Position numbers and translations under genes: made by a program. Under the pieces are notes generated by a model, which saw only the letters and a program-made list of their open reading frames with translations, was not told where the DNA came from and searched no databases. A DNA stretch of 64,000 nucleotides from an uncultured Chryseobacterium sp. (GTDB taxonomy: Bacteria > Bacteroidota > Bacteroidia > UBA10329): positions 6,553 through 70,552 of the forward strand of contig CAZATP010000014.1 in the NCBI GenBank assembly GCA_964488095.1, written 5' to 3'. Shown piece after piece: positions 27,197-61,651 of this stretch (the first letter of the stretch is position 1; every line of letters starts with the position of its first letter).

Positions 27197-27676
27197 ATGA
27201 AACAACTCTACTCCTCCTCCATGATGAAAGGTCAGATCCTTTTGAAGGCAGCCGCAGTGGTTGCACTTGTTATGGTCTGGATACTGATTGACAAGGGCAA
27301 CGCGCTCGGTCAGGAGTCCAACATAGTCAGGCAGTCTGTCAAACATGCGCAGCAGACGACTGGAAGTGCAACACCCTTGCTACGCGATGGCAGTCGCGAT
27401 GGTGGCATTGGGGAGGATGGCGAGGACGGTTCGGGCGACTTCAGCGTGTTCCCCAACCCGGTGAAGGACGATGCCGTTTTTGACTTCGGATTCACGGTTC
27501 GGGGAGAATTGCCCTACCAGATCACGGATGCCTTGGGCAGATTGGTCGATCAAGGCACTTTCGTCCCAGACCTCAAACGTCAGACGGTCGATTTCTCCCG
27601 CTACAGAACAGGAATGTATCTGGTGCGCGTTCAGATGGGCAACAAGGCCGTGGTGAAGCGCATCATCAAGCAATAA
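27197..27676 (+). CDS. Mini T9SS substrate: signal peptide plus a Por_Secre_tail-type CTD only
   Basis: C-terminal 75 aa match the type-A CTD (VFPNPVKD...YQITDALGRLV...GMYLVRVQ...KRIIKQ). Only about 50 aa lie between the signal peptide and the CTD. Confidence 0.65.
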   Translation: MKQLYSSSMMKGQILLKAAAVVALVMVWILIDKGNALGQESNIVRQSVKHAQQTTGSATPLLRDGSRDGGIGEDGEDGSGDFSVFPNPVKDDAVFDFGFTVRGELPYQITDALGRLVDQGTFVPDLKRQTVDFSRYRTGMYLVRVQMGNKAVVKRIIKQ

Positions 27677-54914: not shown

Positions 54915-57900
54915 TCACCCCACCACCACCTCCCCATCCTCCATATACACCAGCAGCCCTTGCACCTTCGTGTGGCCGAGGGCGGTGAGGGCATCGCGGT
55001 AGGCCGCTATCTGGGTGCGGTGCTCGGGGCGTTTTCCGCCCGTCTTGTAGTCGAGCACGTAGGTCATGTCGGGCGTGGTCACCACACGGTCGGGGCGTAG
55101 CCACTGCCCGCCAGGCATCTGTATGTCGGCCTCGGTGCGGATGGTCACGGTGTCTGAGAAGAGCCGTCCCAGTTCGGGCCTGTCAATGATGCTTAGGATG
55201 CGCTGGCGCAGGCCGTCCGCTCCGCTTTCGGGTATCCTGCCGTCCTCCACCAGCCGCTGCACGGCAAGCGGCACATCGGCAGCGGTGCGCACGTGGGCCA
55301 GCGCATCATGTACAAGGATGCCGAAGTCGCGGGCCGCACTGTCGCCCCACTCGCGCAACGATGGACGGGCAATGGCGATGCGCGACATCCAATCGGGCCC
55401 GCCCGTTTCTCGAAGCTCAAGACGCTGTGTCTCCTCTTCCTTATGCGGGCCGGGGGCCTCCCGCTCGCCTATGGTAAGGCTGTTCTCCGCTATCACATGG
55501 CCCAGTTTGGGAAGGGTGCGGTAAAGGAAACCCGCAGCCGAATTGGTAGGCTTCTCCGCAGTCGCCTCATCGGCCTTCACCCGCCCGCTGATGTAGAGCC
55601 GCTCCTGCGGCCGTGTGAGGGCCACGTAGAGCATGTTGAACATGTCCATGGTGGTCAGTTCGCGCTCACGTTCGAGGGCGGGTTCGTGGTCGGTGTCCTC
55701 CAGTTCCTTCGTGGCCTTCACGTAGAGGCGGTTGAGGGGCTGCGCCTCCGGGTCGTTCACTTCCAGCCAGATACTGTTGCGCGAGGTGTCGAGGTCATAG
55801 TCGGCAAAGGGATGGATGACCACGGGAAACTCCAGCCCCTTGCTCTTATGCACGGTGAGGATGCGGATGGCATCGCGGTTCTCGGTGAGGGCGATGCTGC
55901 GCTTGCCGCGATGCTCGGCCCAGTGTTCGAGGAAACCGTTGAGGTCGTTGCCCTCCTTGCGGGCATATTCCAGCACCTCGTCCATGAAATAGACGAGATG
56001 CGGCTGCTTGATGTGCCCCAGCACATGGTGGCGCATGGCCTCGAACAGCGAGAACAGTGGCAGCTGACGCAAGCGCGAGAGGCGCAGTTCGGGATAGAGC
56101 TCCTTCAGAAGAACCTTGAGGCCCCTGTCCTTCTCCGCGCCCACCATGGCGAGGCGTGCGCTGACGAGGCGGGTCTCCTCGCGGGCCATGCAGAGGTGCT
56201 GCACCAGCTCGGCCTGGTTGGTGGTGTCGTGCGGGGCGATGATGAACACCGCCAGATTGACCAGCAGCCGCACATAGGGAGAACTGTTGATGAGCAGCGA
56301 CTCACTGCTCACCACGCTGTGGCCGCTCTCTATGAGGAACTGGGCGGTGGCGATGCCTTTCTCGTTGGAGCGACAGATGATGGCGATGTCGCCCGGGGCG
56401 TAGCCGTCCGCGATGCACTCCTCCACCCATTCCAGCACCTGCTCCAGTGTGTCGGGCACATAGTCGGGATAGCTGCGCTGCCCTTCGGGAACGGGCATGA
56501 AACGCATCGCCACCCTGCCGCCCGTCTTTCCATCGGGGGTGAGCTGCGCGACTCCGTCATACATCACGCGCAGCGTTTGGGGCATCTCGTCCTGCATGGC
56601 CGCGAAGAGTCGGTTGTTGAAGTCAACGATGGTGGGCCGAGTGCGGAAATTGTGGCGCAGGGCGTGTTCCTGCACATTGGTGACGAGGCTCCTTTCGCGC
56701 TGCGCGAGGGTGACATCGAGCTGCGGGTCGGCCTCCAGATGGCCGCGCATGTATGCGGTGCGATGCACGGTGGGCAGCTCCACGAACTGCTGCACCTCGC
56801 CCCCGCGCCAGCGGTAGATGCTCTGCTTGGCATCGCCCACCACGAGGCAGAGGCCGTCCGTGGCGAGGCTCTCATCAATGAGCGGCAGCATGTTGAACCA
56901 TTGCAGCACGTTGGTGTCCTGAAACTCATCCACCAGAAAATGATGGTAGCGATGGCCCAGCCGCTCGTAGATGAACGGGGCCTGCTCCTTCATCACCACG
57001 CTGCTCACGAGGTGGTTGAACTCCCCGATGTGGAGCACCTCCTGCTCCTGCTGCAGGTCGCGGACGATCTCGGCCATGCGGTCGAGCAGGGCGATGCCAT
57101 AGATGTTCTTTACGATAAGTCCCAGCCGCTTCATTCGTTCGATGCGGGAGAGGATGCTGCCATAGGCGTCCATCATGGCGGGAACAAGGGCATCTATCAC
57201 AGATTTCTCTTGGGCCTTGGCCTTGGAACCGTGCCATTTATCAGCTTCCAGATTCTTGAGCACCGTGGCGTTGGGCATCTCCAGCCTTCCATTCACAACC
57301 TTGACAAAATAGCCCGCCATACCATCCTTTCCTCCTGCAAAATGGCCCACTTCCAGCCCTGCGGCCGCTATCTGTCGCAGGATGTCGTTGGCGGTGGCCT
57401 GCGCCTGTGCCTCATCGGCCTTCACCAGCCCGACCAGTTTCCTGCGGATGGCGATGAGGTCGCTCATGCCCACGTCCTTCATGCCCGCGAGGTGGAAACG
57501 GCCCTCCTCGTTGAAGATGGTGGCGGCCATGTCGGTCAGCACCTGGTCTATGCTCCAGCTCTTCTCGTCCTCGGCCTGCGCCAGCGAGAGGTCTATAAGG
57601 GCATCGGTGACGCCCTTGTCCACGCCCACCTGCCCGAGGAGGCGGTCGGTCATGGCGGTGATGAGGCGGTCGGTGTCCAGCTCCACCTCGAAGTTCACGG
57701 GCAGGCCGAAATCCTGCGCGAAGGTGCGGATGACGCGGTGCGTGAAGCTGTCGATGGTGCTGATGCCGATGTCGGCATAGTTGTGCAACATGCTGCGCAG
57801 CACGCGCTCGGACTTCTTCCTGAGGTCGTCTGTGCCGATGCCCAATTCCTCGCGCAGCAGGTTGGCCATGGGGCCATCGGGGATGGCGGGGTCGGCCAGT

Positions 57901-58082
57901 TCGCGGAGGGTGTTGAGCACGCGGGCCTTCATCTCCTCTGCCGCCTTGTTGGTGAAAGTGATGGCAAGGATGCCGCGATAGGCGGTGTCGCCCGTGCTGC
58001 CGAGGGCGATGCGCAGGTATTCCTTCACCAGTGTGAAGGTCTTGCCCGACCCAGCGGACGAACGGTAGATCTTGAAGGACAT
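54915..58082 (-). CDS. UvrD/AddA-like ATP-dependent helicase fused to a C-terminal PD-(D/E)XK (RecB-like) nuclease
   Basis: Walker A AGSGKTFTLV at the N-terminus. UvrD helicase blocks (VDEFQDTN, a Q-motif-like SIYRWRGG, VHKSKGLEF). The C-terminus carries the D...(DMTYVLDYKTG) nuclease motif. The start is atg at 58082 (MSFKIYRSS). Confidence 0.85.
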   Translation of the reverse strand: MSFKIYRSSAGSGKTFTLVKEYLRIALGSTGDTAYRGILAITFTNKAAEEMKARVLNTLRELADPAIPDGPMANLLREELGIGTDDLRKKSERVLRSMLHNYADIGISTIDSFTHRVIRTFAQDFGLPVNFEVELDTDRLITAMTDRLLGQVGVDKGVTDALIDLSLAQAEDEKSWSIDQVLTDMAATIFNEEGRFHLAGMKDVGMSDLIAIRRKLVGLVKADEAQAQATANDILRQIAAAGLEVGHFAGGKDGMAGYFVKVVNGRLEMPNATVLKNLEADKWHGSKAKAQEKSVIDALVPAMMDAYGSILSRIERMKRLGLIVKNIYGIALLDRMAEIVRDLQQEQEVLHIGEFNHLVSSVVMKEQAPFIYERLGHRYHHFLVDEFQDTNVLQWFNMLPLIDESLATDGLCLVVGDAKQSIYRWRGGEVQQFVELPTVHRTAYMRGHLEADPQLDVTLAQRERSLVTNVQEHALRHNFRTRPTIVDFNNRLFAAMQDEMPQTLRVMYDGVAQLTPDGKTGGRVAMRFMPVPEGQRSYPDYVPDTLEQVLEWVEECIADGYAPGDIAIICRSNEKGIATAQFLIESGHSVVSSESLLINSSPYVRLLVNLAVFIIAPHDTTNQAELVQHLCMAREETRLVSARLAMVGAEKDRGLKVLLKELYPELRLSRLRQLPLFSLFEAMRHHVLGHIKQPHLVYFMDEVLEYARKEGNDLNGFLEHWAEHRGKRSIALTENRDAIRILTVHKSKGLEFPVVIHPFADYDLDTSRNSIWLEVNDPEAQPLNRLYVKATKELEDTDHEPALERERELTTMDMFNMLYVALTRPQERLYISGRVKADEATAEKPTNSAAGFLYRTLPKLGHVIAENSLTIGEREAPGPHKEEETQRLELRETGGPDWMSRIAIARPSLREWGDSAARDFGILVHDALAHVRTAADVPLAVQRLVEDGRIPESGADGLRQRILSIIDRPELGRLFSDTVTIRTEADIQMPGGQWLRPDRVVTTPDMTYVLDYKTGGKRPEHRTQIAAYRDALTALGHTKVQGLLVYMEDGEVVVG
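54927..55047. repeat. Direct repeat copy B (inside the intact 3' end of the helicase-nuclease gene)
   Basis: See copy A. Differences cluster in a ctgaccgtggcgttc / ctgggtgcggtgctc patch. Confidence 0.85.
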
Positions 58083-58140
58083 GGGGGAAAGGTAGAATGG
58101 GGAAGGGGAAATAGGAAAATGGAAAATAGGGAAATGGTGC
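58083..58140. repeat. Purine-only degenerate GGAAA / AATGG repeat tract in the helicase leader
   Basis: atgggggaaaggtagaatggggaaggggaaataggaaaatggaaaatagggaaatgg. On the helicase sense strand this is a C/T-rich polypyrimidine 5' leader. Confidence 0.5.
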
Positions 58141-58195
58141 CGTGACAGCACGACCTGTCTCCAACCTTAGACCTTCACACAGAACCCTCTGCTCC

Positions 58196-59908
58196 CTACC
58201 GAATGAGACTGACCCTCCGCACGGCAGTGCCTGCCACTGTTTCGAAGCGCACCATGTAGAGCCCGCTGGGCAGGGAGCTGATGTCCATGCGCAGGCGGCC
58301 ATCGGTGGTCTGCTGGCTGTGGAGCAGGCGGCCGGTCATGTCGATGAGGGTCACATTGGCAGGCATGCCAAGGGTTCCCTGAACATCGAACACGCCCGCG
58401 GTGGGATTGGGGAAGACCTTCATTTCCTGCGGGGCAGCGGCCTCTTCCATCCCAACGGGCACGGTGAAGGTCACATCAGTGCACCACTGGTTGTCATCGG
58501 AGAAGATGTCCAAATGGTCGTTGGGACTGATGGCCACGAGGCAGATGGTCTCCGAATGAACACTGTTCTCTGTCATTGGCCCATTGATGAGATAAAGTCC
58601 GTTGAACGGTATCGTTGCAGTGTCACCGGGTGACAGGTTCAGACCGTCTGCAATGATAGTCTGGCCTGGTGTGCCACAGAAGGCCATGCCGTGCTGAGCG
58701 AAGTATGAAAGCAGCACTCTATCGAGGGTGTTTCCTGAATGGTTGACCACTTTCACCGTTGCGTGGGCGCGAAAAGTGTAGATAGCACCGAAGGCAGGGG
58801 AGTAATACTGGCTCGATGATATCGAATCCACTGTGCCGAGCAGTTCCACATCGTCCTCATGGGCCACGGTGGTGCCATCCATCCGGTAGCTTTTCATCCT
58901 ACCCCCGAAACGGCCATGATGCCCTACGGAGCTGGCGGTCATCACAAGGCCGTCCCGGTAGGCCATAGAACCTGCTCCCGTGAAGAGCACTTGTTGCAGA
59001 TCCGTCTCACCGATGGCAAGAAGCGCACCTCCTGCTGAGAGCCAGACCTCCTCATTGGCATCGACAAAACCGTATGGAGCGACCGAGGTGGGGATGCTGA
59101 TCCAATCCTCCAACTCCAACTGATCGGAAAGCACTGCGATCATGGTGGTGGTCAGTGCCAGCACCCGGTCGCCATCCTTTCGGATATCGATGATGTACTC
59201 CGCATTGTCCAAGCTCACTGATGCCAGCACTGTGCCGTCCATGTGGGTTCGGAAAACCGCGCTACCGGCACCCACGAGCAAGGTGGTGTCGTTCTCCCAT
59301 CGCATGCAATGGACAGGCTGGGCCGGGGCCAGCCAACGGTGCAGCACCTCACCGTCATCGTTCAGGATGATGATGCTGTCCTCGGATGCGATCGCATGGT
59401 TGACGCTCGCACCATCTGCAAGACGGTCGAAAATACCCGCATGACTTCCTGGGATATGATTGAAATCTGAGAAGGTGAACCCCCATTGCCACATTGGCTC
59501 ACCAGCATGGTCAAGCCGAATCACTGCCCCCTGCCCCGACACTACATCACATTCGTCATACACTCCTACAATGAGCACGCCCTCATCATGCAGAACCGAA
59601 ACCTGCTTGGCCTTATTGAGTGAAGTGTTGCCCCAGTAGGTGTTCGGCATCAGAATATGCCCGAATCTCCAAAGGGGTGTTCCGTTAGCAGAGCATTTGG
59701 CCAAAAAGTATGTGTCCGTTGGCTGACCACCGGAGACATTCCCCCTACCTGCAAAAAGCCACGCATCCTCACCAATGACAAAGACCTCATCATATTGGAC
59801 GATGTCCGTGTGCTGGTCCACACGGTCGATCGGGGTCTGCCCGAAACTGACGGTCGGTAGCAGGAGTGCCCAAAGCATCAATCTCAATAGGTCCCGTTCC
59901 ATCGTCAT
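58196..59908 (-). CDS. T9SS substrate of unknown function (570 aa) with type-A CTD
   Basis: Signal peptide and a C-terminal VFPNPTAGVFDVQ...MTGRLLHSQQTTDGRLRMDISSLPSGLYMVRF...RRVSLIR. Confidence 0.65.
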   Translation of the reverse strand: MTMERDLLRLMLWALLLPTVSFGQTPIDRVDQHTDIVQYDEVFVIGEDAWLFAGRGNVSGGQPTDTYFLAKCSANGTPLWRFGHILMPNTYWGNTSLNKAKQVSVLHDEGVLIVGVYDECDVVSGQGAVIRLDHAGEPMWQWGFTFSDFNHIPGSHAGIFDRLADGASVNHAIASEDSIIILNDDGEVLHRWLAPAQPVHCMRWENDTTLLVGAGSAVFRTHMDGTVLASVSLDNAEYIIDIRKDGDRVLALTTTMIAVLSDQLELEDWISIPTSVAPYGFVDANEEVWLSAGGALLAIGETDLQQVLFTGAGSMAYRDGLVMTASSVGHHGRFGGRMKSYRMDGTTVAHEDDVELLGTVDSISSSQYYSPAFGAIYTFRAHATVKVVNHSGNTLDRVLLSYFAQHGMAFCGTPGQTIIADGLNLSPGDTATIPFNGLYLINGPMTENSVHSETICLVAISPNDHLDIFSDDNQWCTDVTFTVPVGMEEAAAPQEMKVFPNPTAGVFDVQGTLGMPANVTLIDMTGRLLHSQQTTDGRLRMDISSLPSGLYMVRFETVAGTAVRRVSLIR

Positions 59909-59920
59909 TAGTTCAATAGG

Positions 59921-61651
59921 TCACGGGTGGATAAGGTTCACCCTGCGCACCACACTGCCCGCGCTGCTATCGTACCGCACCAGATACACTCCGGTGGGGA
60001 ATGCGCTGATGTCCATGCGGAGGCGGCCATCGGTGGTCTGCTCGCTGTGGAGGAGGCGACCTGTCATGTCGGTTATGGATACGGTGGCCTCCACCCTATC
60101 GGCAGCGATCACGTCAAAGATTCCGTTGGTAGGATTGGGATAGATACGCAGGTCGGCCAGGCGGGCATCCGAAATGGAGGTGATAGCATCCAGCACTTCG
60201 AACTTCCACCAGCCCTGTGGCGCGGTGATGGGCCTCACCTGCTCCTTGCCGTTGTTGGCCTCTGCGTGGATGTAGTAGAACACCTCCTCGCCCGCTGCCT
60301 GATAGGGGATGTGGCCCGTCCAAGTGGCATTGACGGGGTCGGTGAGGGTCATGGGCACGGGCTGATAGCCCACTGCGGTGTCGATGCTCCAATAGACCTG
60401 TGCCGACTGGATGCCTGATGCATGGCGGATGAGGGCGTTCACGGCATAGTCCTGTGTGACGTAGGGCGTGTCGTCCAGCGGTTGGTGCGAGATGAGCAGC
60501 GGGTCGTTGCTCTGCACCGCCTTGGTGATGCAATGGATGGCCCCGCTGGCCGAGATGATGGTGTTGCAGTCCAGCCCCACCACCTTGTAGCCCGGCAGTG
60601 CCTCGCGGTAGATGCGCAGGGCGGTGGTGTCATACTGTTGTGTGTAGGTGGGCACGAGGATGGTCTTGTTGACGAACACCGAGTTGGTGTAGGTGCGATA
60701 GTCGCCCCCGTTGTTGGGATACTGGTTCCCATCGGGCGGCATGGGGATACGGATGACCTTGTAGGGCGTGCCGTAGACCGACATGAAATTGTTGAGCACA
60801 TACTGGAGGTTGGCCTCTATCTGCGGGCCATCGGCCACCCCGGCAGGGTATTGGCCCACGAGCAGGGTCTCCTCGTCCAGCAGTTTCATGTGCATGTCGA
60901 TGTGGTGGATGCCGTCATAGGGCAGCGTATTCATCTTTATATAGCGGTCAATGCCCATGAAATCGGAGAGGATGTCATCGATCTGGCCTTCGGTCTTGGC
61001 ACTTACCCCGTAAGGATTGCCCGGCTCGTTCTCCTCCAGAATCAGCTCGGAGGCGAAGGCGGTACCGAAACCATCGACCATGAAATTGCCGCCCGTGTTC
61101 ACCAGATCGGTGGGGGATACGGTGGTCTCATACAGCGGGATGTCGAGCAATTCTGACAGGGCCACCGGGATCACATCGTCCAACGGGCGCGGGCGGTTGT
61201 AGATCCAGTCCACCCACATCAGCTCGCCCACTTCATCGTCATAGATGTTCCACTGGCCGTAATCGCGGAACCAGACGCTGTTGCTGGGTTCGTTCACAAA
61301 GACCACGTTCTGCGTGTTCACCCCGCCCTGAGCAAGATACGTGCTCACATCGTTGGCGAATTGAGTCACGATATAGACCGTCACCTCTTCCTTGGCATGG
61401 CGCACAATATTGCGCAGCAGCACTTGATACGCGCTGGTCCACCGGATGCAGAGACCATCGCTCTCCTCCCACTCTGCCGGGGTGCGCACAGGCCCGGCAG
61501 GCGGTGTGGTGAATCCTCTGGAAGAAAGCGCAGGCCGTGCGAGGGGCAGCATGGTGCGCTCCTGTTCCGTGAGGCCCTTCGGGAGGTCCTGTGCATGGGA
61601 ATGGGCGGCAAAAAGCAGAAGGAAGGGCAGAAGGAGGAGTGATTTCCGCAT
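59921..61651 (-). CDS. Porphyromonas-type peptidylarginine/agmatine deiminase homolog carrying a T9SS CTD
   Basis: Signal peptide, a deiminase fold with catalytic-Cys motif GAIHCIT, and a C-terminal CTD LRIYPNPTNGIFDV...MTGRLLHSEQTTDGRLRMDISAFPTGVYLVRY...RRVNLIHP. Confidence 0.65.
   Translation of the reverse strand: MRKSLLLLPFLLLFAAHSHAQDLPKGLTEQERTMLPLARPALSSRGFTTPPAGPVRTPAEWEESDGLCIRWTSAYQVLLRNIVRHAKEEVTVYIVTQFANDVSTYLAQGGVNTQNVVFVNEPSNSVWFRDYGQWNIYDDEVGELMWVDWIYNRPRPLDDVIPVALSELLDIPLYETTVSPTDLVNTGGNFMVDGFGTAFASELILEENEPGNPYGVSAKTEGQIDDILSDFMGIDRYIKMNTLPYDGIHHIDMHMKLLDEETLLVGQYPAGVADGPQIEANLQYVLNNFMSVYGTPYKVIRIPMPPDGNQYPNNGGDYRTYTNSVFVNKTILVPTYTQQYDTTALRIYREALPGYKVVGLDCNTIISASGAIHCITKAVQSNDPLLISHQPLDDTPYVTQDYAVNALIRHASGIQSAQVYWSIDTAVGYQPVPMTLTDPVNATWTGHIPYQAAGEEVFYYIHAEANNGKEQVRPITAPQGWWKFEVLDAITSISDARLADLRIYPNPTNGIFDVIAADRVEATVSITDMTGRLLHSEQTTDGRLRMDISAFPTGVYLVRYDSSAGSVVRRVNLIHP

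What the first reader, a model, noticed from the sequence alone, without database searches (positions are those of the whole stretch)
58196..61651. Tandem T9SS cargos, one a PPAD/agmatine-deiminase homolog, sharing a near-identical CTD-coding stretch
Two adjacent minus-strand genes 12 nt apart both end in type-A CTDs. A 66-nt stretch of CTD-coding DNA (58278-58343 and 60006-60071) is about 90% identical, and it encodes MTGRLLHS(Q/E)QTTDGRLRMDIS in both. The rest of the two proteins are unrelated. That pattern fits recent CTD duplication, or gene conversion between CTD cassettes. The upstream gene is a Porphyromonas-type deiminase homolog with the GAIHCIT catalytic-Cys motif, fused to a secretion CTD. 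That makes it a candidate secreted or surface citrullinating or agmatine-deiminating enzyme outside Porphyromonas.
Basis: seen in the sequence. Interest (0 to 1): 0.55.

Follow-up and report, generated by a model that had tools for sequence, protein, structure and literature searches.

The report
Secretion-tag swapping between adjacent cargo genes
Two neighbouring genes for secreted proteins, one a close architectural relative of the citrullinating enzyme of the gum pathogen Porphyromonas gingivalis, share a secretion tag because the second gene was spliced in at the tag boundary of the first, and the shared tag DNA still drives loss and exchange of that gene in related bacteria.

Summary
ORFs 59921-61651 and 58196-59908 (minus strand, 12 nt apart) both end in type-A T9SS CTDs. 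A 66-nt core is 61/66 identical and occurs only twice in the window.

Gene A is a PPAD-type deiminase, not an AguA agmatine deiminase. Its best solved relative is P. gingivalis PPAD, matching across both the catalytic and Ig-like domains. The catalytic pentad and the Arg152/Arg154 pair are invariant in 121 family members. The family is large in uncultured Flavobacteriales/Bacteroidia.

Gene B is a rare (8 homologues), fast-evolving, probably beta-propeller cargo.

The shared CTD is not a recent local duplication. B's CTD plus its downstream DNA is the orthologue of the deiminase's ancestral CTD and 3' flank. B sits in a 1.7-kb block [CTD-stop-spacer-B body] joined in frame at the PNPTxG codons. 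Relative L013 shows this junction exactly. B orthologues always match the CTD family of a neighbouring or donor cargo, never each other.

The core is a young block inside CTD copies whose flanks are saturated at synonymous sites. It is also the crossover site where sibling genomes lost B and kept a chimeric CTD.

This is a new variant of modular recombination, of moderate interest.

The parts
59921..61651 (-). Gene A: a PPAD-type deiminase and T9SS cargo (576 aa). It has a signal peptide of about aa 1-20 (cleavage AHA|Q), a catalytic domain at aa 56-377, an Ig-like domain at about aa 380-490, and a CTD at aa 505-576.
   Evidence: PF04371 scores 136 bits and PF18962 46 bits. PPAD structures 4yt9/5ak7 match at E 4e-44 over aa 48-488. 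W127, D130, R153, R155, I248, H250, D252, N323 and C374 are invariant in 121 homologues.
60521..61486 (-). Catalytic (pentein/guanidino-modifying) domain of gene A, aa 56-377.
   Evidence: Pfam PAD_porph matches profile positions 1-318 of 321. The alignment to PPAD shows the YNRPRP, IHHID, YTNS and AIHC motifs.
60182..60514 (-). Ig-like domain of gene A (about aa 380-490), equivalent to the PPAD IgLF domain.
   Evidence: The HMMER alignment to PPAD chains continues through chain residues about 320-421, which is PPAD aa 361-461. The domain definition is taken from PMC4893104.
59924..60139 (-). CTD of gene A ('type 1a'). It is not the ancestral deiminase CTD. On the insertion model it lies inside the inserted block.
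   Evidence: It is 92-94% aa identical to the L008_A and L003_A CTDs but only 65% to the L005_A CTD and 61% to the gene B CTD. Its flank nt identity to type 1b is 55-71%.
60122..60139 (-). PNPTNG codons at the start of the gene A CTD: the left recombination joint.
   Evidence: Homology of the window to L013 ends here, at winrc 2382 = window 60119. In L013 the switch from deiminase to foreign CTD occurs inside these codons.
60005..60070 (-). Core repeat, copy in gene A (DMTGRLLHSEQTTDGRLRMDIS). It starts with the L-beta3-beta4 (D.TGR) recognition motif.
   Evidence: It is 83-97% nt identical to all type-1 CTD cores. Same-codon pairs are 15/19 against 8.1 expected. The motif's role is described in PMC11285876.
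59909..59920 (-). The 12-nt spacer between A and B. No promoter or terminator match falls between the genes, so co-transcription is inferred.
58196..59908 (-). Gene B: a rare secreted protein (570 aa). It has a signal peptide (SFG|Q), a probable beta-propeller, a beta-sandwich region and a CTD.
   Evidence: It has only 8 homologues among 5.8e9 proteins. The AF2 model has mean pLDDT 57.5 and is all-beta. Foldseek returns generic beta-propellers, with PorZ 5m11 ranked second at TM 0.27.
58394..58411 (-). PNPTAG codons at the start of the gene B CTD: the right recombination joint.
   Evidence: The window aligns to the B-less locus L005 from 58418 downstream at 88%. The L013 right junction is shown base by base.
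58199..58411 (-). CTD of gene B ('type 1b'): the orthologue of the ancestral deiminase CTD.
   Evidence: It is 82% aa identical to the L005_A CTD, 61% to win_A, and 28% to gene B orthologues in the other genomic context.
58277..58342 (-). Core repeat, copy in gene B.
58152..58195 (-). Spacer downstream of B. It is the ancestral 3' flank of the deiminase gene and leads into the UvrD/PD-(D/E)XK helicase-nuclease gene (54915-58151).
   Evidence: The same GGAG...GGAGACAGGTCGTGCC...GGCACCATTTCCC sequence follows the deiminase stop codon in the B-less loci L001, L003 and L005.

Best explanation
The locus is a two-gene tandem of T9SS cargo genes, built and kept dynamic by recombination between the DNA encoding their C-terminal secretion domains (CTDs).

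Gene A encodes a secreted or surface PPAD-type deiminase. It is predicted to convert C-terminal (or free) arginine to citrulline using Cys374/His250/Asp252/Asp130/Asn323, with Arg153/Arg155 holding the substrate carboxylate.

Gene B encodes an unrelated, fast-evolving beta-propeller-like cargo. It lies within a ~1.7-kb block [CTD - stop - short spacer - B body lacking a CTD]. This block is joined in frame at the PNPTxG codons that begin the deiminase CTD. As a result, B is now secreted with the deiminase's original CTD and uses its 3' flank. The deiminase uses the CTD that lies in the inserted block.

The two CTD copies form 1728-nt-spaced direct repeats. Their 66-nt core has been homogenised (a conversion tract) and serves as a crossover site. 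Recombination there deletes B and leaves the deiminase with an intact chimeric CTD.

What is shown: the mosaic structure, the junctions, the deletion haplotypes, and residue conservation. What is inferred: the direction of events (insertion versus loss), a circular or other intermediate, RecA-type recombination at short homology, the enzyme's activity, and co-transcription.
For: 1. Gene A. PPAD structures are by far the best solved relatives: E 4e-44 across the catalytic and Ig-like domains, against 1e-19 or worse for agmatine deiminases. The equivalents of PPAD W127, D130, R152, R154, I234, H236, D238, N297 and C351 are invariant in 121 family members. The roles of these residues come from PMC4893104.

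2. B is an indel in a conserved syntenic block (Transglut_core2 - Acetyltransf_6 - HlyIII - deiminase - [slot] - UvrD). It is present in the window, L008 and L013, and absent in L001, L002, L003 and L005.

3. Window 58418-55794 (B CTD, spacer, UvrD) aligns at 88% with L005's deiminase CTD, spacer and UvrD. B's CTD is 82% aa identical to the L005 deiminase CTD, 61% to the adjacent deiminase CTD, and 28% to B orthologues elsewhere.

4. L013 shows a 1.71-kb insertion exactly at the PNPTTG codons. Its left part (foreign 'type 2' CTD, TGA, spacer, start of B) is collinear with the amidase-cargo/B tandem of L010 and L012. Its right part is the deiminase's own CTD.

5. In three settings B's CTD matches the CTD of the gene immediately upstream: 61-66% with the deiminase, 72-82% with the amidase/CUB/LamG cargo, and 58% in the distant L094. 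B orthologues from different settings share only 25-39% CTD identity.

6. L001 is 97-98% identical to L008 over 13 kb but lacks 1721 bp. Its deiminase CTD matches L008_A on the 5' side and L008_B plus downstream DNA on the 3' side, with the switch inside the core. Fragments P0129 and P0130 show the donor allele and a second, different core-crossover chimera.

7. Same-codon pairs in the core are 15/19 (8.1 expected from codon usage), against 9/23 in the flanks (10.5 expected); Fisher p = 0.013.

8. In a search of 1.84e9 representative proteins, apart from one 5143-aa multi-repeat protein whose 126 bits are summed over 13 stretches, no CTD outside this lineage exceeded 76 bits. The B-family representative scored 124 bits. 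So the similarity is not a generic CTD flavour.
Against: Direction is inferred. A PNP-to-PNP crossover deleting B from an ancestral A-B tandem would give the same L005-like structure. I prefer insertion only because more distant B-less deiminase orthologues (66-76% identity) also carry type-1b-like CTDs and because B is extremely rare.

The origin of the window's type-1a CTD is unknown. The A-B spacers of the window and L008 differ from each other and from L013, so more than one event is needed.

The core is as similar between genomes as within this one. Homogenisation therefore predates these genomes or recurs, and the Fisher test for other pairs is weaker (p = 0.05-0.2).

The core begins with the functionally essential L-beta3-beta4 motif (PMC11285876), so part of its amino-acid conservation is ordinary purifying selection.

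All comparison loci are metagenome assemblies. No enzymatic or secretion data exist for either protein.
Confidence: 0.7

Rival explanations
1. A recent in-situ duplication of the deiminase CTD onto the neighbouring gene. The two CTDs would be young paralogues, with the core simply the part that has not yet diverged.
For: The copies are direct repeats 1728 nt apart, the core is 92% identical, and the whole CTD is homologous.
Against: Flank synonymous sites are saturated, at 9/23 same-codon pairs against 10.5 expected by chance. B's CTD is closer to the deiminase CTD of other genomes (82%) than to its neighbour (61%), and it is contiguous with the ancestral 3' flank. The same A/B CTD divergence is seen in L008.
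Confidence: 0.05
2. No recombination in the core. The 66-nt identity would reflect strong purifying selection on a T9SS recognition surface (the L-beta3-beta4 motif through beta5), plus biased codon usage.
For: The core starts with D.TGR, the L-beta3-beta4 motif that is essential for secretion in P. gingivalis (PMC11285876). The core peptide is conserved in deiminase orthologues down to about 76% identity. The core is equally conserved between genomes.
Against: Selection on the protein does not explain conservation of synonymous sites (15/19 against 8.1 expected from this genome's codon usage). The middle of the core (HSEQTTDGRLR) is not a generally conserved CTD position: in a whole-library search, all other CTDs except one multi-repeat protein scored 76 bits or less. 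Crossovers are directly observed in the core in L001/L002 and P0130.
Confidence: 0.12
3. Functional coupling. B would be an accessory partner of the upstream cargo (a chaperone, adaptor or inhibitor) and would be selected to carry the same CTD so that the two proteins are secreted or anchored together.
For: B lies immediately downstream of another CTD cargo, 8-44 nt away, in every locus recovered. In most loci its CTD resembles that neighbour's.
Against: B pairs with two unrelated enzymes, a deiminase and an Amidase_2/CUB/LamG protein. Of the deiminase homologues whose loci were inspected, four (L001, L002, L003, L005) lack B, and B's own family numbers only 8 proteins against thousands of deiminase homologues. 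In L013 the neighbours carry different CTD types, 25% identical. B is lost without loss of A.
Confidence: 0.1
4. An assembly artefact. The repeat would have caused metagenome assemblers to join or collapse contigs, creating false chimeric CTDs or a false tandem.
For: All loci, and probably the window, come from metagenome or MAG assemblies. Repeats are a known cause of misjoins.
Against: The longest exact run shared by the two CTDs is 22 nt in the window and 20 nt in L008, too short to collapse typical assembly k-mers. The chimeric protein P0001 is recorded on 4 contigs of 20-178 kb. B with identical sequence is in two independent sources. The L013 contig was seen in 2 samples. All junctions are in frame with intact ORFs.
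Confidence: 0.03

Closest known systems
Porphyromonas gingivalis peptidylarginine deiminase (PPAD; PDB 4YT9/4YTB/4YTG/5AK7/5AK8)
   Same: The domain order is the same: signal peptide, pentein catalytic domain, Ig-like domain, type-A T9SS CTD. The catalytic Asp130/His236/Asp238/Asn297/Cys351, the cavity residues Trp127/Ile234, and the C-terminal-carboxylate-binding Arg152/Arg154 are all conserved.
   Different: Sequence similarity is only moderate (154 bits over about 440 aa). Tyr233 is Gly (or Glu) across the family. The host is an uncultured environmental Flavobacteriales-like bacterium rather than an oral Porphyromonas. No activity data exist. Reviews still describe PPAD homologues as confined to P. 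gingivalis, P. gulae and P. loveana (PMC13539308).
Agmatine deiminase AguA (TIGR03380 / NF010070)
   Same: It belongs to the same Pfam family, PF04371, and has the same catalytic Cys/His/Asp chemistry. Databases name this protein 'agmatine deiminase family protein'.
   Different: It scores 63-67 bits against cut-offs of 382-483. AguA enzymes are cytoplasmic and lack a signal peptide, an Ig-like domain and a CTD (my own knowledge, not tested here). PDB agmatine deiminases match 25 or more orders of magnitude worse than PPAD.
Modular C-terminal cassette exchange in polymorphic toxins (CdiA-CT at the VENN motif, Rhs at PxxxxDPxGL, with 'orphan' modules) - from my own knowledge, not tested here
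   Same: A short conserved peptide-coding motif at a domain boundary serves as the in-frame recombination joint. Cassettes travel with a stop codon, a spacer and the next gene. Tandem arrays arise whose members share one module and differ in the other.
   Different: Here the conserved, exchanged module is the secretion tag, and the variable part is the N-terminal passenger of the next gene. No immunity gene and no toxin are involved.
Recombination among the repeated 3' adhesin/CTD regions of P. gingivalis rgpA, kgp and hagA - from my own knowledge, not tested here
   Same: T9SS cargo genes with near-identical 3' coding blocks that recombine.
   Different: Those genes share long adhesin-domain repeats and are dispersed paralogues. 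Here the shared block is only the ~215-nt CTD, the passenger domains are unrelated, and the genes are adjacent.
Type-A T9SS C-terminal sorting domain (PF18962 / TIGR04183)
   Same: Both CTDs pass the curated thresholds and contain the PNP start, the D.TGR (L-beta3-beta4) motif, the GxY motif and a basic C-terminus.
   Different: This 'type 1' CTD sequence family is confined to a narrow lineage.

Membership tests
PPAD-type peptidylarginine deiminase | PF04371 (PAD_porph) domain above the gathering score | tested here: met
   136.1 bits against a cut-off of 25, covering profile positions 1-318 of 321.
PPAD-type peptidylarginine deiminase | Catalytic residues Asp130, His236, Asp238, Asn297 and Cys351 | tested here: met
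   They align to D130, H250, D252, N323 and C374, and are invariant in 121 of 121 family members. The residue roles come from PMC4893104.
PPAD-type peptidylarginine deiminase | Arg152/Arg154 pair that binds the free C-terminal carboxylate (exo-deiminase specificity) | tested here: met
   The YNRPRP motif is conserved (R153, R155) and invariant in 121 of 121 members.
PPAD-type peptidylarginine deiminase | Tyr233 hydrogen bond to the substrate carboxylate | tested here: not met
   The position is Gly247 here. Across the family it is G in 97 members and E in 21.
PPAD-type peptidylarginine deiminase | Ig-like fold domain packed after the catalytic domain | tested here: met
   The sequence alignment to PPAD chains extends through query aa 380-488 and chain residues about 320-421. 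No structure was predicted for gene A.
PPAD-type peptidylarginine deiminase | Citrullination of C-terminal arginine in peptides | not testable with these tools
   This needs an enzyme assay.
Agmatine deiminase AguA | Score at or above the NCBIfam equivalog/subfamily cut-off | tested here: not met
   TIGR03380 scores 63.1 against 381.8, and NF010070 scores 66.9 against 483.
T9SS type-A cargo | C-terminal PF18962/TIGR04183 domain at the extreme C-terminus | tested here: met
   Gene A: 46.3 and 44.6 bits. Gene B: 40.8 and 46.3 bits. The cut-offs are 27 and 23.
T9SS type-A cargo | N-terminal Sec signal peptide | tested here: inconclusive
   Hydrophobic N-termini with AHA|Q and SFG|Q sites were read directly from the sequences. 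No signal-peptide predictor was available.
T9SS type-A cargo | T9SS machinery genes in the same genome | not tested
   Only 64 kb of the genome is available, and it was not screened for por/gld/spr genes.
Recombination between direct CTD repeats (gene conversion or unequal crossover) | Mosaic identity: a tract much more similar than its flanks, including at synonymous sites | tested here: met
   Core 92% against flanks 55-62% nt identity. Same-codon pairs are 15/19 in the core against 9/23 in the flanks, p = 0.013.
Recombination between direct CTD repeats (gene conversion or unequal crossover) | Recombinant haplotypes with the breakpoint inside the repeat | tested here: met
   Comparing L001 with L008 shows a 1721-bp deletion with the switch inside the core. 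P0130 is a second chimera.
Recombination between direct CTD repeats (gene conversion or unequal crossover) | CTD phylogeny incongruent with passenger-domain phylogeny | tested here: met
   CTD identity matrix compared with the body identity matrices.

The most novel reading that the evidence does not exclude
T9SS CTD-coding DNA may act as a portable in-frame docking site. Promoter-less cargo cassettes of the form [CTD - stop - spacer - passenger lacking a CTD] would move between cargo genes by recombination at the conserved PNPTxG codons or at homogenised CTD cores. Each hop gives the incoming passenger the resident CTD and gives the resident gene the incoming one. This would be a general, integron-like or CDI-orphan-like route by which Bacteroidota diversify their secretomes.

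Support beyond this lineage comes from L049 and L062, where adjacent unrelated cargo genes also share 76-87% identical CTDs.

A second thread is that PPAD-type exo-deiminases are common secreted enzymes of environmental Bacteroidota, rather than a Porphyromonas speciality.
Probability: 0.35. Interest if true: 0.7.

Novelty: new variant of a known kind. Interest (0 to 1): 0.55.

Why it matters
For T9SS biology, the finding gives a concrete, sequence-resolved example of how a new passenger protein becomes a secretion substrate. The gene is spliced in frame at the CTD boundary of an existing cargo gene and takes over its tag. The same repeated tags then make cargo content unstable, with gain, loss and tag swapping among close strains. 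If this is general, it explains tandem cargo arrays with matching tags. It also offers a rule for predicting recent secretome changes, and it supports using native CTD junctions (PNPTxG) as design points for engineered secretion.

For the deiminase, the finding shows that the full PPAD architecture and its C-terminal-arginine-binding residues are widespread in uncultured Flavobacteriales/Bacteroidia. Reviews still treat PPAD as confined to three Porphyromonas species. This opens questions about the ancestral, non-pathogenic role of secreted citrullinating enzymes and about environmental or commensal sources of citrullinated peptides.

Tried and rejected
- Exact look-up of the window's deiminase found nothing on record.
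- A word-indexed protein search with a CTD alignment returned only four short fragments. They later proved useful as chimeric haplotypes.
It returned only generic CTDs at 44% identity or less, so neither the source genome nor other type-1 CTD carriers were found.
- The metagenome scan with a core-only alignment found 5 weak, unrelated CTDs.
- AlphaFold2 of gene B from 8 sequences gave mean pLDDT 57.5. Foldseek then gave only generic beta-propeller matches with TM about 0.3, so the PorZ hit is not taken as homology.
- The promoter/terminator scan was uninformative, at or below the shuffle expectation.
- I considered that all CTDs in this genome might look alike. I rejected this because the third CTD in the window is 38% identical, the L009-L012 loci carry another unrelated CTD (L009_Y, 25-34%), and the whole-library HMMER search shows the type is lineage-restricted.
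- I considered B to be a diverged duplicate of A and rejected it, because there is no body similarity.
- I considered an assembly artefact and rejected it (the multiple contigs).
- Literature searches for natural CTD recombination or gene conversion found nothing relevant. Searches for PPAD-like enzymes in Flavobacteria also found nothing.

Full report
OBSERVATION

The two minus-strand ORFs are real. Gene A runs 59921-61651 (576 aa) and gene B runs 58196-59908 (570 aa), with a 12-nt spacer. Both end in type-A T9SS sorting domains above the curated thresholds (PF18962 and TIGR04183).

The 66-nt stretches are 61/66 identical. A degenerate 66-mer matches only these two places in the 64-kb window, against none in 100 shuffles. 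The repeat finder reports a 158-nt direct repeat at 75% identity with 1728-nt spacing. BLASTP aligns only the last 75 residues (59% identity), and the passenger parts are unrelated.

Codon-aligned, the whole CTD is 67.5% identical at the nucleotide level. Identity is 43-70% in 30-nt sliding windows of the flanks and 87-97% in the core.

GENE A IS A PPAD-TYPE DEIMINASE

Pfam PAD_porph scores 136 bits. The AguA equivalog and subfamily models score 63-67 bits against cut-offs of 382-483, so this is not an agmatine deiminase by NCBI's definition.

Among solved structures, the five PPAD entries of P. gingivalis are best, at E 4e-44 to 2e-42. The alignment covers aa 48-488, which spans both the catalytic domain and the Ig-like domain. 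Agmatine deiminases score 1e-19 to 1e-9.

I mapped the residues that Montgomery et al. (PMC4893104) showed to be catalytic (Asp130, His236, Asp238, Asn297, Cys351), cavity-lining (Trp127, Ile234) and C-terminal-carboxylate-binding (Arg152, Arg154). All are conserved in gene A and invariant in 121 aligned family members. Only Tyr233 differs, being Gly or Glu.

The N-terminus reads as a Sec signal peptide followed by Gln.

More than 6000 database proteins match, and nearly all of the top 120 combine PF04371 with PF18962. These come from uncultured Flavobacteriales/Bacteroidia and are named 'agmatine deiminase family protein' by their sources. A 2026 review still lists PPAD homologues only in P. 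gingivalis, P. gulae and P. loveana (PMC13539308).

The enzyme's activity is an inference from these residues. It has not been shown.

GENE B IS RARE AND SITS IN A VARIABLE SLOT

B has only eight homologues among 5.8 billion proteins. An AlphaFold2 model from these eight has low confidence (mean pLDDT 57.5) and is all-beta. Foldseek returns generic beta-propellers with TM about 0.3. I therefore call it only a probable beta-propeller cargo of unknown function.

Relatives conserve the gene order Transglut_core2 - Acetyltransf_6 - HlyIII - deiminase - [slot] - UvrD/PD-(D/E)XK helicase. B fills the slot in the window, L008 and L013. It is absent in L001 (95% identical deiminase), L002, L003 and L005.

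Other B orthologues (L009-L012, and the 37%-identical L094) lie instead directly downstream of a different T9SS cargo, an Amidase_2/CUB/LamG protein.

CTDS FOLLOW THE NEIGHBOURHOOD, NOT THE PASSENGER

There are two CTD families:
- Type 1: ...DMTGRLLHSEQTTDGRLRMDIS...GLYLVRYET.AGTAVRRVNL.R
- Type 2: PNPTTGIVFLPNANGSMLEV.DATGR.IA.SQLTSDR.DLRGMG...

The deiminase carries type 1 in six loci but type 2 in L013. B carries type 1 next to the deiminase and type 2 next to the amidase cargo. In L094, B and its upstream neighbour share a third variant.

Quantitatively, the window's B CTD is 82% identical to the deiminase CTD of L005 and 61% to the adjacent deiminase CTD. It is only 28% identical to B orthologues in the other context. 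The L009 B CTD is 82% identical to its upstream neighbour's. Passenger bodies do not show this pattern.

A HMMER search of 1.84 billion representative proteins with the window's two CTDs found very little outside this lineage. The B-family representative scored 124 bits and one fragment 107 bits. One 5143-aa multi-repeat protein reached 126 bits, but only as a sum over 13 stretches. Every other CTD scored 76 bits or less. So the resemblance is specific and is not a generic CTD flavour. The genome and metagenome scans added no further carriers.

JUNCTIONS

Compared with the B-less L005, L013 carries a 1.71-kb insertion. L013 follows the deiminase up to the PNPTTG codons that open the CTD. It then switches to a type-2 CTD, TGA, a spacer and the start of B, all collinear with the amidase-cargo/B tandem of L010 and L012 (about 75-78% nt identity). 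At B's own PNPTTG codons it switches back to the deiminase's type-1 CTD and downstream DNA (83% to L005).

The window has the same right-hand structure. Positions 58418-55794 (B CTD, spacer, UvrD) align at 88% with L005's deiminase CTD, spacer and UvrD. The GGAG...GGAGACAGGTCGTGCC...GGCACCATTTCCC spacer after B's stop codon is the one that follows the deiminase stop in L001, L003 and L005.

So B uses the deiminase's ancestral tag and 3' flank. The block [A's present CTD - stop - 12 nt - B body], about window 58412-60139, is the indel.

I infer insertion rather than repeated loss for two reasons. More distant B-less deiminases (66-76% identity) carry type-1b-like CTDs, and B is very rare. A PNP-to-PNP deletion would leave the same footprint, so polarity is not proven.

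The source of the window's 'type 1a' CTD flanks is unknown. The A-B spacers differ among the window, L008 and L013, so the history involves more than one event.

THE 66-NT CORE

Among all type-1 CTDs the core is 83-97% identical, both within and between genomes. (The more divergent L013_B core is 68-77%.) The 1a and 1b flanks are 55-71% identical.

For codons encoding the same residue, the window pair shares the codon in 15 of 19 core positions, where 8.1 are expected from local codon usage. In the flanks it shares 9 of 23, where 10.5 are expected, which means saturation (Fisher p = 0.013). Other pairings show the same direction with p = 0.006-0.2.

The core begins with D.TGR, the L-beta3-beta4 motif needed for secretion in P. 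gingivalis (PMC11285876). Protein-level selection therefore contributes, but it cannot explain the synonymous conservation.

The core is also a demonstrated crossover site. L001 and L008 are 97-98% identical over 13 kb, but L001 lacks 1721 bp. Its deiminase CTD matches L008_A on the 5' side and L008_B plus downstream DNA on the 3' side, with the switch near CGCATGGACATCAGC.

Two fragments add to this. P0129 is a B 3' end whose C-terminal flank is identical to that of L001's chimera. P0130 is a different chimera, combining a 1a N-flank with an L008_B-like C-flank. At least two independent core crossovers are therefore recorded.

An assembly artefact is unlikely. The longest exact shared run is 20-22 nt. 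The chimeric protein is found on four contigs of up to 178 kb. All junctions are in frame.

GENERALITY

I surveyed the 46 fetched loci that hold two or more C-terminal CTD ORFs. Two unrelated lineages also show adjacent cargo genes with unrelated bodies and 76-87% identical CTDs: L049, a Bacteroidales MAG with three genes in tandem, and L062. In both, the similarity starts at or just before the PNP motif.

I found no paper describing natural CTD recombination.

VERDICT

Its CTD interpretation is partly right. Recombination between CTD cassettes is real. However, the pattern reflects capture of the deiminase's tag by an inserted cargo gene, followed by core homogenisation and repeat-mediated loss. 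It does not reflect a recent duplication.

The mechanism is an application of well-known modular recombination, analogous to cassette exchange at the VENN or Rhs motifs, to a module where it has apparently not been described. I rate it a new variant of a known kind, with interest 0.55.

Noticed in passing
window 27197-27676 (+): A 159-aa ORF that is little more than a type-A CTD (PF18962 at aa 84-157, 41.6 bits). Its CTD is only about 38% identical to that of gene A. It may be a minimal cargo or the remnant of a CTD cassette.
   Followed up: partly
window about 59440-59745 (gene B aa ~55-157); L008 8165-8472: Gene B is itself mosaic and fast-evolving. This N-terminal segment has two haplotypes among orthologues and shows no nucleotide match between the window and L008, although the flanking genes are 90-95% identical. 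B bodies are only 74% aa identical between the window and L008, and context-1 and context-2 B proteins are not reciprocally monophyletic. This suggests diversifying selection or frequent allele exchange.
   Followed up: partly
L049 330-5414; L062 2-2370: Unrelated Bacteroidota MAGs also carry adjacent cargo genes with dissimilar passenger regions and 76-87% identical CTDs. L049 has three in tandem, with up to 100% nt identity in 30-nt windows. L062 has two.
   Followed up: partly
L012 7584-9279: The gene B orthologue in GCA_964500205.1 is called as two overlapping ORFs (149 aa and 431 aa). It is probably a frameshifted or decaying copy. A Uma2-family gene lies between it and the M16 peptidase gene.
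   Followed up: no
L003 7941-8495 and L002 3497-3942: The slot between the deiminase and UvrD genes is variable even without gene B. L003 has a 184-aa ORF of unknown function on the opposite strand, and L002 has a 447-nt non-coding gap.
   Followed up: no
window 58142-58633 (+) and 59927-60418 (+): Two antisense ORFs of identical length (163 aa) with similar sequence (…ADVHA.AAIGGLLAVE…) mirror the CTD repeat. They are most likely a by-product of the repeat in GC-rich DNA rather than genes.
   Followed up: no
window 54915-58151 (-): The gene immediately downstream of the tandem encodes a 1078-aa UvrD-family helicase with a C-terminal PD-(D/E)XK nuclease domain (AddA-like). Its position next to a recombining locus is conserved in all relatives and is probably coincidental.
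   Followed up: no
L009 and L010 (both from JGI sample 3300075146): Two co-occurring strains in one sample carry gene B alleles whose bodies are only about 69% identical over the last 400 aa, at the same locus. Their CTDs are identical and their upstream-cargo CTDs are 99% identical.
   Followed up: no
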